64,000 bases of DNA from Octopus sinensis (taxonomy: Eukaryota): the NCBI RefSeq assembly GCF_006345805.1, contig NC_043012.1:18352001-18416000 (forward strand). The letters run 5' to 3'. Below are positions 50,622 through 62,700 of this stretch, piece by piece; position 1 is the first letter of the stretch; each line of letters starts with the position of its first letter. The position numbers and the translations under genes are program-made. The notes below the pieces were generated by a model. The model saw only the letters and a list, made by a program, of their open reading frames with translations. It did no database searches and was not told the DNA's origin.

Positions 50622-50806
50622 AACAAAAGGAGAAGACAGGAGGTGTACAAAACAAACAGATGTATTAGTATAGCGCACAGGAATAGAAAAAAGTCTTTTA
50701 CGTTTCGAGCCTACGCTCGTCTACAGAAAAGTACACAGAAAAAACAAGGAGAGAAACAAGGAGAGAAAAAATGTATGTAGTGGCTAACGATGCAGCTTGG
50801 CGTCTG
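50622..50806 (-). mobile_element. (TA)n-flanked short element carrying a minimal hammerhead-like motif
   Basis: Homologous to 62416-62610 and 20973-21056; motif at 50695-50731. Confidence 0.75.
50695..50731 (-). ncRNA. Minimal type I hammerhead-like motif with CUGUAGA core
   Basis: CTTTT CTGTAGA C GAGC GTAG GCTC GAAAC GTA AAAG: perfect 4-bp stem II, palindromic ACGT at stem III, TTTT/AAAG stem I. Confidence 0.65.
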
Positions 50807-51892
50807 ATATATATATATATATATATATATATATATATATATATATAATATATATATAATATATATATATATATATATATATATTATATATATATATATA
50901 TATATATATATATATATATATATACAGTAACACGTGTATTAAGACAATGGTCATTCCGGGTTTCTGAATCAATAACATAATATCTACATCTAGCTGTTTG
51001 ATGCGAGGTTGGACATAGGAACACCTGATTAGGGAGCGGTTTTCTAAAACAAACAACCATACCTGACCAGCTATACACCTTATATTTTTGAGTCTGGTAT
51101 AACAGACTCATATAATGTAATTTAGATATTTGAATTTGTTTTCCTAATAACAAGATAAAAGAAATATGATGTCCCTAATGAGTATTTAATGTAATGTTTA
51201 TTGTTAGTAATTTTGCTTATTGATTGAACGTAAAGTAAAATATTTAGTCCGAATCATTCTCAAAAAAAGATATTTATGTGATATTTAAAAAGGATATTTA
51301 AATCAAAGTGAAAATGATCAGTTCGAAAAGCGATATCGAAAACATTTACATATTTAAGTAGAGAAATTATAATGATTATAGTGGATTCAGGCATGGCTGT
51401 GTTTCGTGTTCGAGTCCTACAGCGCCGCACTTTCCGACTGAAGCGTTAGTGCGTGGATATGACAGATGGTAAGCAAAAAAGGGTCCCATCGTACATTGAT
51501 ATATTTACATATACACACATCAAATGAGTCACACGATTCTATGAATACATATATTAGACCATACACACATACACAGGTACACAGACACACACATATTCAC
51601 TTACCTACATGTATATGAATGCCAACTGCAAGAGATCGACTTAAGTTGGACTGAAACAATTATTGTGTGCAATAAGTTTTCTCGATACTACATTTCCGGT
51701 CTTAATCTTTTATTTCATATGTGTATATATATATATATATATATATATATATATATATATATATATATATATATGGTTCAAAACAGTTTGATTGAAATTC
51801 GTCGATGCTCTTGAATTTCGAGCGTGATGCTATTCGTCAGCCATTTTGATTCTGAATGACAAGTTGATTGTTATTATCATAAGGTGGACTGC

Positions 51893-52074
51893 GATTGGTC
51901 AAGGCAAGTCACGCTTGATGTCGGTATATGGGTAGCAGTTAGTTGGAAAATACCGCATGTTGAACTGGAAATCGGCCGCGTGGTGGTGAGGAAATCGGTC
52001 AGGTTCTTGAAGAAGAACTGTTACCCATATACCAACATCAAACCGTTACACCGCGTGACATTCCTCGACCAATC
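51893..52074. repeat. Imperfect inverted repeat (48- and 59-bp arms, 75-bp spacer)
   Basis: GATTGGTCAAGGCAAGTCACGC-TTGATGTCGGTATATGGGTAGCAGTT pairs with AACTGTTACCCATATACCAACATCAA(11 nt)GCGTGACATTCCTCGACCAATC. Confidence 0.88.
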
Positions 52075-53934
52075 CGAGCCCGTGTATGTTGTGTGTGTGT
52101 GTATGTCTGTATTTTCTACACAACTGATTGAGAAACGATGTTGGCTTGTTTATGTACCCGTAACTTACCTGTTTAGCCAATTTGATTGATAGAATTAGAA
52201 CCAGATTATAAAACTATGTATTGAGGAAGATGTAATTGACTTATTCCTCGTTGCCCTGAAATTGCTGCTCTTACTTGAAAATTTACAACCAGTATTATCA
52301 CTCATGTCCCGATTTGAGTTCTCCGTACAACCTCGGGATTGATGTATATAGTATCAGACAAGCATTGGCCATGTGCCTCTTGTTGAAGGCAATATTGCAC
52401 CCAGACTTAAATTCACGATATATCTGAATCGCTTATTTTTTCAAACAATCGTTTTGAAGAAATAACTGGCATTCCATTAACTCCGTTCCTAGGTTTTACA
52501 ATATAAATTCATATAAGGAAAATGTCCATCATTGTATACCTTTCGACGACAAGTCTTGATTTAAAAACGCTTGTCAGCATCAGTTGTTGTTTAGCTACAA
52601 TCAAGCTTTTATTAAATATGCATATAACCAAAACATTTCAAACTTTTACATTCGGTAGACGTAATGCCTCTTAGAGAACATAGTTTAATGCCAGCTTACT
52701 TTGCAAACACCGTAGATAATGATTAAAGGGAAATTTGAACGGATATGTGAGGGAAAGAAAATACTAACACGTAATTCTGCGCATTTAATATATGAAATAT
52801 ACTCATTTTAAATAAATGACTAAGATTTTCTCAGATACAAAGTTGTTCAAGGTGATATTTAAGTGATATAAAATGATAAATGCGGCATAACTGACCTGGG
52901 AATATACTTAAATGAATAAGATAAATATTGTGGTTCGATAAAGATTGATATGCAGTGTGACTTACTAAAAATATTTTCAAGTATTTGAAATTTCCCTCTT
53001 AACGGGAGAAAGAAAATAAAAACTTTGTTAGCAAGTGAAAGAAAAGTGCAGGTAGTTAAAAAGAAATTATTATTTTCATAAATATATGTTTATATGATGT
53101 GGGAAAATGAAATCTTTGTTAACAGAAATACTGACAAGAACGCATTCTTGTTGGTCTTAGTAGACACTGTAGGCGAGATATTGTCAAACTTAAATCAGGA
53201 TCGTCATTTCACATGTGATAGTTGTTCATATAGAAATAGCGACATAAGGTTTTTCAGCTTTTAGAAACAATGGCCTAACTAAAGAAACTCTAGTGGGAAA
53301 TTGACTTGAATTCAGATACGTAGCTTGAGGATAAGGCATTAAATGACAGATGGAAACACGAATGACAGACAATATCTCATTAAAATAACATAGGTTTTTG
53401 CCATAGAGAAAGTAAACCGAAATCCGAGTGCTAATTGCTTGAGATTCTCAGATAAAATGAGAAGAAAATGATAATGATTAAAACCTGTCACGCCGTATTC
53501 TCGCTATAGCTGGAATAAGTTACGCGTCATATCTGCAGGATACCCGGTAATGTGGTAATGGACAACATACGTAGAAAAAGATGATGCTGCGCATTCCGTC
53601 CATTAGTTTGTCTGCAATCGTTACTCTTGAGCTGTATATATAACAATTTCTGTTTACTTTTTCTATTGCTCAGGAGCCCAATTGGAATGAAAAGTTAAGC
53701 ATGGGGCCCCAGATCCAAGATCTGAGTGGTGTAAGAATTGAATGTTACTTTCTTAAATTTGCATCGGACCAAAGACCTCAAAATAAATGCTTAATTTTAT
53801 TCGTTTAAATCTTATCGTTCTTCCTCAGAGCCCAAGTAAGCGTTAATGAACCAAACGAATAATCAAAATTCTTCATGTGATGATCAGTCCGTCCTTTCTG
53901 CTTTAAGGCATGGTGCATATTGCATGGATGCTAT

Positions 53935-61203: not shown

Positions 61204-61618
61204 ATAGGCGCAGGAGTGGCTGTGTGGTAAGTAGCTTGCTTACCAACCACATGGTTCCGGGTTCAGTCCCACTGCGTGGCACCTTGGCCAAGTGTCTTCT
61301 GGCTATAGCCCCGGACCGACCAATGCCTTGTGAGTGGATTTGGTAGACGGAAACTGAAAGAAGCTTGTCGTATATATGTATATATATATATTATGTGGGT
61401 GTATATGTTTGTGTGTCTGTGTCTTCGTCCCACTAGCATTGCTTGACAACCGATGCTGGCGTGTTTACCTCCCCGTCACTTAGCGGTTCGGCAAAAGAGA
61501 CCGATAGAATAAGTACTAGGCTTACAAAGAATAAGTCCCGGGGTCGATTTGCTCGACTAAAGGCGGTGCTCCAGCATGGCCGCAGTCAAATGACTGAAAC
61601 AAGTAAAAGAGAAAGAGT
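61204..61618 (+). mobile_element. SINE family 1, full-length young copy
   Basis: Best-preserved A/B boxes (TGGCTGTGTGG, GGTTCAGTCCC), CORE-like segment and tail hairpin CAGTC-AAAT-GACTG. Confidence 0.95.
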
Positions 61619-62415
61619 AGCTAGCTAAAAGAGAATATAGCGGCGAAGGTACACACTTATGGTCTCTTATATGTAAGTACATATATATCTATCTAAATTC
61701 TGTACGACTCTCTTATTCTTCCGTTCAGCCCCTTCGGTCTTACTTCATTCTTTCCATTCTTCTTTTTCTCACTCTCTCTCTCTCTCTCTCTCTCTCTCTC
61801 TCACATTTCTTGGCCTTTCTTTCATTCTCACCTTACCTCCTCTTTCACCTCACTCTGTCTCTTTTCTTTTTTTTTCTATTTCGTCCCTCCCTAATTCTTC
61901 TATCCCTCTGGCCCTACCTCTCCCCTCTCCTTTCATGTGACCGATGTTCCGCCAAGCCTGACGTTTCTTCCCTGGTTCGACTACCAAATGTGCAACATCT
62001 GTATTCCTTCTCGTGACTTTCATCCCTAATGTTCCTGCCGTAGAGCTTCACTTCCACAAACTCCTGCGAAAATTAATTCGTCCTTAGTCGAAAGATACCT
62101 GTTGTTCATGTCCTGTTTATGTTTATGCAACATCTCTCCGTTTTCCCGTCCTTGTTTTCGTATACATTCGCTTGTTTTTTTGTCACGGAATTTAGTGCTC
62201 TTAGATTAGATTGGAGCAGCCCCGAGTGTAACCGGGCGACACTGCTGAAAAAATCAGGAAATCAACTGAAGATAGAAAAGTCCGAATGACCTATCCTTGT
62301 TTTTCCCTGTCCTTTGAATTGTCTAACTGTCCGGATGTTTTGTTGTCGCACGTTACGTTCTCGTTCCATTTTTTGTTTTCTTTATATATATATATATATA
62401 TATATATATATATAT

Positions 62416-62700
62416 GGGGTAGAGTTCACGAAAAAAAAAACAAAAGACGAAACAGGTGGTGTAGAAAACAAACAGATGTATTAGTAGAACGCTCGGGAAT
62501 TGAAAAAGTCTTTTACGTTTCTAGCCTACTCTCTTCTACAGAAAAGGGCACAGAAAAAAGCAAGGAGAGAAACTAGGAGAGACGAAAAAGTGTGTGTAGT
62601 GGCTAACGATCTGTCATGGCCACTGCCGGACAGAAGGGTCAGACAGGAGAGCGAAGTAGTAGGGGAGATAACAAAGTAAAATGACTCCCACAACGAAGGT
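62416..62700 (-). mobile_element. Longer copy of the (TA)n-associated hammerhead-bearing element
   Basis: Aligns with 50622-50790. Minus-strand CTGTAGA A GAGA GTAG GCTA GAAAC GTA AAAG at 62510-62546. The right boundary is approximate. Confidence 0.72.

What the first reader, a model, noticed from the sequence alone, without database searches (positions are those of the whole stretch)
50622..62700. Repeated short element carrying a hammerhead with a shared non-canonical CUGUAGA core (A6U)
Seen: two independent copies (50695-50731 and 62510-62546, minus) both have CTGTAGA in place of CTGANGA. Both also have one extra nucleotide before a GUAG-looped stem II and a loopless palindromic GAAAC/GTA stem III that could form only in a dimer. 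A third copy (20973) is truncated before the motif. All three end at the same point against (TA)n and no ORF is attached. The shared substitution implies it was in the amplifying master. Inference: a TA-targeted PLE pseudo-LTR or retrozyme-like family using either a variant ribozyme or a catalytically dead fold retained for RT recognition.
Basis: partly seen in the sequence, partly recalled or inferred. Interest (0 to 1): 0.7.

Follow-up and report, generated by a model that had tools for sequence, protein, structure and literature searches.

The report
Penelope retrotransposon hammerhead with A6U core
These repeats are broken-off tail ends of a very abundant protein-coding jumping gene, likely in an octopus, whose hammerhead-shaped RNA has U in place of a normally fixed A in nearly all matching copies while the rest of the motif is kept, so it is likely a slowed self-cutting RNA, though cutting is untested.

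Summary
The three copies are 5'-truncated ends (pLTR) of an autonomous Penelope-like element (RT, zinc-finger linker, C-terminal GIY-YIG; Neptune-like), not an ORF-less retrozyme. Full pLTR-ORF-pLTR copies carry U6 in both pLTRs.

U6 is the family state: 13,499 of 13,983 exact genomic matches, and 74 of 75 copies sampled independently of the motif. The sister family and all 20 motifs found near outgroup elements keep A6, so U6 is derived.

After U6 was fixed the motif stayed constrained like a hammerhead. Only N7, H17 and a stem I bulge vary between subfamilies: 0 of 33 constrained positions against 17 of 54 flanking ones. The extra nucleotide, palindromic stem III and TA targeting are published PLE features, so A6U is the only anomaly.

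Best reading: a slow, dimer- and protein-dependent cleaver. Main rival: a dead fold kept for protein binding. Nothing here shows cleavage, and U6 itself is not shown to be selected. This scan has reported the same variant before, in this genome and in shark-like genomes. I found no natural A6U in print, but one key paper (Lunse 2017) was unavailable.

The parts
50603..50806 (-). Copy 1: 5'-truncated 3' end (pLTR) of the PLE, CTGTAGA/GTA subfamily, about 200 nt, flanked by (TA)n on both sides
   Evidence: 91.5% identical to L004 over 200 nt
50693..50736 (-). Minimal type I hammerhead module of copy 1: stem I, core C3 50726 to A9 50720 with U6 at 50723, extra C 50719, stem II GAGC/GCTC with GTAG loop, GAAAC-GTA, predicted cut after 50699
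62415..62778 (-). Copy 2: older, more decayed 5'-truncated 3' end, about 360 nt, reaching further into the 3' UTR
   Evidence: 80.6% to L135 over 361 nt, 88.9% to L004 over 208 nt
62508..62551 (-). Hammerhead module of copy 2: C3 62541, U6 62538, predicted cut after 62514; stem II broken at two of four pairs
20973..21060 (-). Copy 3: last ~88 nt of the youngest subfamily (CTGTTGA/GTT), truncated downstream of the hammerhead
   Evidence: 88 of 88 nt identical to L331
50807..50925 (.). (TA)n tract at the 5' junction of copy 1; (TA)n also abuts the 3' ends of all three copies (about 50583-50602, 62382-62414, 20929-20972)
   Evidence: TATATA follows 83 of 92 sampled copies against 16.5% background

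Best explanation
The repeats are 5'-truncated tail ends of an autonomous Penelope-like retrotransposon whose pLTR hammerhead has U fixed at core position 6, and this motif likely still works as a slow self-cutting RNA that is predicted to need a second copy and probably the element's own protein. Shown: family identity, TA-tract insertion, U6 as the derived family state, and continued conservation of all other core and stem positions across successive subfamilies. Inferred: the element is transcribed from an upstream pLTR; its protein nicks (TA)n and starts reverse transcription about 100 nt downstream of the hammerhead; early termination leaves the 100-400 nt pieces seen in the window. Inferred: two motifs pair through the ACGU palindrome to build stem III; U6 weakens the CUGA turn, so most transcripts stay uncut long enough to be copied, while occasional protein-assisted cleavage keeps the remaining core under selection.
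For: Identity: copies run 5' without a break into GIY-YIG and RT frames. pLTR-ORF-pLTR units of about 4.3-4.5 kb with CTGTTGA in both pLTRs: L331, L333, L335, L337, L347. Open frames up to 1,009 codons; Pfam RVT_1 above cut-off, GIY-YIG at E 0.003. U6: 13,499 of 13,983 exact matches and 74 of 75 in a sample anchored outside the motif. Derived state: the sister family (67% aa) keeps A6; 20 of 20 motifs in 80 outgroup loci have A6; U6 elements form one clade nested among A6 elements (SH-aLRT 100, quick tree). Constraint: only two stem I bulge bases, N7 and H17 (A 49, U 26) vary; 0 of 33 constrained positions against 17 of 54 downstream flank positions, Fisher p=1.4e-4. The unpaired catalytic bases stay fixed too, which a purely secondary-structure role would not require. 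Stems covary across families: 7 of 8 pairs have two-sided changes, 0 of 500 shuffles reach this. Precedent: natural A6C cleaves slowly (PMC3088659; PMC7151607), and the Anolis PLE hammerhead cleaves only with its protein (PMC11167929).
Against: No cleavage was measured. All single mutants of the CUGA turn had low activity in a mutational scan (PMC9901934, passages), and even canonical PLE minimal hammerheads cleave poorly (PMC4209133). There is no clear genomic footprint of cutting. The 5' pLTRs of long copies run hundreds of bases past the 5' hammerhead. Among about 50 loci whose 5' junction lies in or just after the motif, 10 start at the cut site and 6 at the loop TA, and 9 of the 10 are in the subfamily where the cut site itself offers TA microhomology (hand count from the first 100 rows). 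The invariance of U6 alone proves nothing: a neutral site would stay unchanged about 69% of the time at the flank rate. H17 toggles only between A and U; C and G are both rare (178 matches together), so 'never G' is weak evidence. HHR mutants did not impair insertion in vitro for the Anolis element (PMC11167929), so cleavage may be dispensable.
Confidence: 0.55

Rival explanations
1. The U6 motif is catalytically dead, and the hammerhead-shaped fold is kept because the element's protein (or a host factor) binds it to position reverse transcription about 100 nt downstream.
For: CUGA-turn mutants have low activity (PMC9901934). Cleavage was not needed for insertion in vitro (PMC11167929). Naiads spread without canonical hammerheads (PMC8557442). 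Copies read through both hammerheads, with no convincing pile-up at the cut site. Loop II and the extra A are also invariant, as a binding site would be.
Against: The positions that vary (N7, H17, stem I bulge) are those that catalysis leaves free, and all ten other unpaired or core bases stay fixed across subfamilies. A protein would have to read the same set.
Confidence: 0.28
2. U6 is an adaptive lock: it lets U4-G5-U6 pair with A15.1-C15.2-G16.2 inside one copy, holding monomers in an inactive rod until a partner or protein refolds them.
For: In the youngest subfamily this helix is the predicted minimum-energy fold, with pair probability 0.94 for U6 against 0.00-0.03 for A, C or G. The sister family has a similar core-to-stem III alternative pairing.
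Against: In three other subfamily contexts the probability is 0.36, 0.05 and 0.00, and the A6 version of the youngest one also folds into a core-paired inactive form. These are predictions only.
Confidence: 0.08
3. The conservation reflects a DNA-level or splicing signal in the pLTR (promoter element or 3' splice acceptor after the pyrimidine tract), and the hammerhead is a relic.
For: A long pyrimidine tract ends in CTGTAG in the window's subfamily. The Penelope intron ends at helix I in Drosophila virilis (PMC4209133).
Against: The TAG exists only when N7 is A (4,076 of 13,499). The constrained set covers both strands of both stems, with compensatory changes between families. No GT..AG joint was listed there (contigs only, 9 joints not shown).
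Confidence: 0.06
4. The short copies are a separate non-autonomous, retrozyme-like element of about 200 nt that is mobilised in trans.
For: 68 of 92 sampled copies reach no more than 175 nt upstream of the anchor and only 3 end between 176 and 449 nt. A few local tandems exist (L095, L098, L099).
Against: Short and long copies share subfamily-diagnostic bases (copy 3 is identical to L331). The 5' ends are spread over tens of bases rather than fixed, and most copies are solitary.
Confidence: 0.03

Closest known systems
Minimal type I hammerheads (min-HHR) in pLTRs of metazoan Penelope-like elements, Cervera and De la Pena 2014, PMC4209133 (seen: parts 1-2 of 4 of the text; part 2 of 3 of supplementary file 2; file 1 not searchable)
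   Same: Location in both pLTRs; extra nucleotide between 9 and 10.1; G10.1-C11.1; palindromic 15.2-16.2 with no loop 3; short stem I; thousands of solitary truncated copies.
   Different: Core CUGUNGA instead of CUGANGA. All 44 of the 56 rows of their Fig. S3 that I could see have A6; their named variant is U3-A8. Their descriptor fixed the core, so it could not have found U6.
Neptune-clade EN+ PLEs as defined in Craig et al. 2021, PMC8557442 (seen: passages; supplementary part 54 of 59 and a term search)
   Same: [quoted passage not shown]
   Different: I had no reference Neptune sequence in my tree, so clade placement rests on architecture. The octopus families shown by my term search of their supplement were Naiad and Hydra (2 of 4 'Octopus' places and one Hydra row shown).
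Natural A6C hammerhead of phage Bcep176, PMC3088659 (passages) and PMC7151607 (parts 1-2 of 4)
   Same: A natural substitution at position 6 in an otherwise intact core; slow but detectable cleavage, rescued by Mn2+.
   Different: C rather than U; one phage sequence with a normal stem III, against a multi-subfamily animal retroelement lineage of more than 13,000 copies that needs a dimer.
Protein-assisted hammerhead of the Anolis Poseidon element PAc, PMC11167929 (seen: passages and section 3 part 2)
   Same: A PLE hammerhead upstream of an internal RT start and tail; unprocessed RNA is the main template; AT-rich targets.
   Different: Poseidon clade; the ORF starts in stem II there but about 730 nt after the cut site here; no position 6 variant is mentioned in the parts I read.
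Non-LTR retrozymes (bioRxiv 10.64898/2026.07.22.740005; seen: part 1 of 5 and passages)
   Same: A short repeat with a type I hammerhead related to a PLE pLTR.
   Different: Retrozymes are tandem and non-coding; this family is dispersed and continuous with its own ORF.

Membership tests
EN+ Penelope-like element | Single ORF with a PLE-type reverse transcriptase | tested here: met
   Pfam RVT_1 31.7 bits, cut-off 29.6, YIDD motif, in L332
EN+ Penelope-like element | C-terminal GIY-YIG endonuclease with CCHH motif | tested here: met
   Pfam GIY-YIG at E 0.0028, below the curated cut-off; IIY...YIG with two internal cysteines and downstream histidines is visible and matches Fig. S2 rows of PMC8557442
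EN+ Penelope-like element | Direct pseudo-LTRs of variable length formed by partial tandems, with a tail extension | tested here: met
   Self-matches of 620-1,390 nt flank the ORF in L331, L333, L335, L337, L347; the 5' pLTR continues into the leader
Neptune clade | CX2-5CxxC zinc-finger-like linker between RT and EN | tested here: met
   C-x4-C-x2-C precedes the GIY-YIG; spacing like the Neptune rows, longer than Nematis
Neptune clade | Phylogenetic placement with reference Neptune RTs | not tested
   The tree held only unnamed homologs; no reference sequences were available to the tools
Naiad clade | N-terminal endonuclease | tested here: not met
   EN follows RT
Minimal type I hammerhead of PLEs | Core C3 U4 G5 A6 N7 G8 A9 | tested here: not met
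   A6 is U in 13,499 of 13,983 matches; the other core bases are kept
Minimal type I hammerhead of PLEs | G12 A13 A14 A15.1, U16.1 and H17 not G | tested here: met
   71-75 of 75 at G12-A15.1, U16.1 in 73 of 75; H17 A 49, U 26; C or G in 178 matches genome-wide
Minimal type I hammerhead of PLEs | Stems I and II, extra base 9a, palindromic 15.2-16.2 | tested here: met
   92.8% of cells paired, 7 of 8 pairs with two-sided change across 19 sequences of several families; almost no covariation inside the U6 lineage itself, where stems are simply invariant
Minimal type I hammerhead of PLEs | Self-cleavage as a dimer | not testable with these tools
   Needs an assay; only contigs, no raw RNA reads, were offered
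Non-LTR retrozyme | Non-coding, tandemly repeated units | tested here: not met
   The family is continuous with an RT-EN ORF and mostly dispersed; local tandems are a minority

The most novel reading that the evidence does not exclude
CUGUNGA is a functional natural hammerhead core: a retrotransposon lineage has spread through several successive subfamilies with a ribozyme that lacks the invariant A6, cleaves only when its own RT-endonuclease (or a partner copy) folds it, and so acts as a protein-gated timer that spares the template. Unverified notes of this scan report the same change in shark-like PLEs, which would make it recurrent or ancient in this clade.
Probability: 0.3. Interest if true: 0.68.

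Novelty: new variant of a known kind. Interest (0 to 1): 0.42.

Why it matters
Why PLEs keep hammerheads is an open question: cleavage is weak in vitro and was dispensable for insertion in the one reconstituted system. This lineage is a natural experiment. It has near-intact young elements, a derived change at a base thought invariant, and a close sister family that keeps A6. If U6 cleaves, the hammerhead consensus widens and CUGANGA-based searches miss more than 13,000 motifs in this genome alone. If it does not cleave, the fold has a non-catalytic job in retrotransposition. A small assay decides either way.

Tried and rejected
Rfam scan of the window: none of the 150 listed of 210 matches is a hammerhead family; they are microsatellite-driven miRNA hits. 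The repeat finder was swamped by microsatellites.

A CTGANGA consensus with the window copies as private mutants was rejected. A recalled idea of a large subfamily with a 3-nt loop II was rejected: 45 matches, most with U6. The PLE ORF in L096, next to a U6 copy, belongs to a distant family (33% aa) and is not the parent. The PLE remnant at window 8286-9963 is also unrelated.

Expression: no RNA holder listed. Contigs of four runs only guessed to be RNA cover the ORF, which shows neither transcription nor cleavage. The cut-site footprint test was inconclusive. One search contained a misplaced third pair and was replaced. The careful tree did not finish; the quick tree is reported, with four rows under half filled.

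Lunse et al. 2017 (PMC5785218) is not held, so I could not check whether it lists position 6 variants. Paper searches that gave no report of a natural A6U hammerhead: 'hammerhead + A6U' (3 papers, 2 listed, not opened, titles on other RNAs), CUGUNGA-type strings (20 of 34 listed, none opened).
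Full report
Observation. On the minus strand, window 50693-50736 and 62508-62551 both read stem I, CTGTAGA, one extra base, a GTAG-looped stem II, GAAAC-GTA and the 3' strand of stem I. C3 is at 50726 and 62541. Copy 1 (about 50603-50806) is intact. Copy 2 (about 62415-62778) has two of four stem II pairs broken. Copy 3 (about 20973-21060) holds only the last 88 nt and belongs to a younger subfamily. All three end at the same point against (TA)n. The genome has 2.72 Gb with about 30 large contigs. 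That it is an octopus is my inference from size and recalled repeats; no call names it.

Position 6 across the genome. Exact 26-nt patterns gave U6 in 4,076 copies with A7 and 9,423 with C, G or T at 7. A, C or G at 6 gave 124 and 360. U6 is therefore 13,499 of 13,983 (96.5%), and the family core is CUGUNGA. To avoid choosing copies by the motif, I took the first 92 of 13,708 matches to a 22-nt anchor downstream of it. 75 covered the module; 17 were dropped as truncated or deleted there. 74 of the 75 have T at 6 and one has a gap. Contigs from four runs labelled as four organisms listed no difference at position 6 at the 3% level, but listed three alternative bases at 7 and A>T at 17 (six rows were not shown).

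What the element is. Searching with the upstream part of a longer copy gave copies that run through a roughly 500-800 nt pyrimidine-rich 3' UTR into GIY-YIG and RT frames. A protein search found 149 scored matches with open frames up to 1,009 codons. Of 20 stretches fetched, 15 belong to the U6 lineage. The 14 visible in the output all have CTGTTGA at the 3' end; L340 was cut from view. L331, L333, L335, L337 and L347 have it in both pLTRs, about 4.3-4.5 kb apart; L339 has C6 in its 5' copy. [quoted passage not shown] No copy I saw is open from ATG to stop; most have small frameshifts. The two youngest clusters lie 2.1-2.5% from their consensus. TATATA follows 83 of 92 copies against 16.5% background. 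The window copies are thus ordinary 5'-truncated insertions.

U6 is derived. The other five fetched stretches are a sister family (67% aa) with CCGACGA, which keeps A6 and has C4. In 80 related loci from metagenome contigs, a descriptor that left position 6 free found 20 motifs (16 sense in 15 loci, 4 antisense). All have A6, and 19 have the extra base. In a quick tree of 30 proteins, the six U6 rows form one clade, sister to the A6/C4 family and nested among A6 elements (SH-aLRT 100 for both forks). All 44 visible rows of the published min-HHR alignment have A6.

The motif stayed under hammerhead-type constraint after U6 was fixed. In the 75 copies only four of 42 module positions have a second base at 10% or more: the two bulged bases of stem I, N7 and H17. 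None of 33 core or paired positions varies, against 17 of 54 positions directly downstream (Fisher p=1.4e-4) and 42 of 94 flank positions overall; the upstream flank is T-rich and aligns poorly. Across families, stems I and II show two-sided changes at 7 of 8 pairs (19 hand-picked, related sequences, so the shuffle count is not a probability). Caveats: few independent subfamily steps underlie these counts; loop II and the extra A are also invariant; U6 staying unchanged is what a neutral site would often do; and H17 avoids C as much as G.

How it likely works. Stem III is only the ACGU palindrome, so two copies are needed, as published for this class. A6 changes are expected to slow cleavage strongly. 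Natural A6C cleaves below 0.1 per minute in Mg2+ and faster in Mn2+, and CUGA-turn mutants were low in a full mutational scan. The Anolis PLE hammerhead cleaves only with its protein, and uncut RNA is the main insertion template. Here every insertion ends about 100 nt downstream of the 3' hammerhead and long copies read through the 5' one, so templates were uncut or re-ligated. I found no convincing pile-up of 5' ends at the cut site: by hand count of about 50 loci in the first 100 rows, 10 start there and 6 at the loop TA, with TA microhomology confounding the first. I put a slow, protein-assisted cleaver at 0.55 and a dead fold kept for binding at 0.28. A predicted alternative helix that needs U6 is strong in the youngest subfamily only.

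Comparison and novelty. It works like, and sits exactly where, a PLE minimal hammerhead does, but it fails the A6 test of the canonical core. The extra base, the loopless stem III and TA targeting are known. I found natural A6C in print but no natural A6U. Lunse et al. 2017 could not be read, and supplementary file 1 of PMC4209133 could not be searched; either may bear on novelty. This scan's notes already hold 46 findings with 'hammerhead A6U' in at least four genomes, including this family in this genome and shark-like elements. I did not verify the shark claims. Verdict: a new variant of a known kind, interest 0.42.

Noticed in passing
family-wide; window copy 1 5' end near 50806: 5' ends pile up about 60-95 nt upstream of C3, around a GCCATG-containing motif shared by all subfamilies: 68 of 92 copies reach at most 175 nt upstream of the anchor, 3 end between 176 and 449, and 21 go beyond 450. 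It could be an RT stall or an internal transcription start, and explains why the family looks like a 200-nt element. Extents were measured against five references and may be underestimated.
   Followed up: partly
L342-L345, L350; also L096:3061, L137:8954, L347:1360: Sister PLE families with a U4C core (CCGACGA), the same stem II and a swapped fourth pair in stem I; L342 has a 1,008-codon open frame. A second family-wide core variant.
   Followed up: partly
L099:3170-4420 and L098:5900-7160: Local tandems of the pLTR end (four units about 312 nt apart; two units 620 nt apart) in which five of six units have canonical A6. Possibly chance duplication of a revertant, possibly a retrozyme-like array.
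   Followed up: no
L331:2154 to 6182 (equivalent to 1674): Contigs of two runs of one study join the leader back to the pLTR just upstream of the hammerhead, a 480-nt unit. Could be a genomic tandem or a circular RNA; not resolved.
   Followed up: no
window 8286-9963 (+): Decayed RT plus GIY-YIG of a different PLE family (32-54% aa to the L096 family, 28% to the U6 family endonuclease).
   Followed up: partly
window about 20745-20900 (+): Another repeat begins a CTGATGA-A core at about 20764 without a matching GAAAC half; probably a decayed hammerhead of another family (not found by the descriptor).
   Followed up: no
window 53935-54154, 61409-61617, 47580-47773, 45469-45656, 20591-20726: A dispersed ~200-nt repeat in both orientations, 85-90% alike; looks like a SINE (recalled, not tested).
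   Followed up: no
window 50721-50775 (-): The pyrimidine tract ending in CTGTAG resembles a 3' splice acceptor in the A7 subfamily only.
   Followed up: partly
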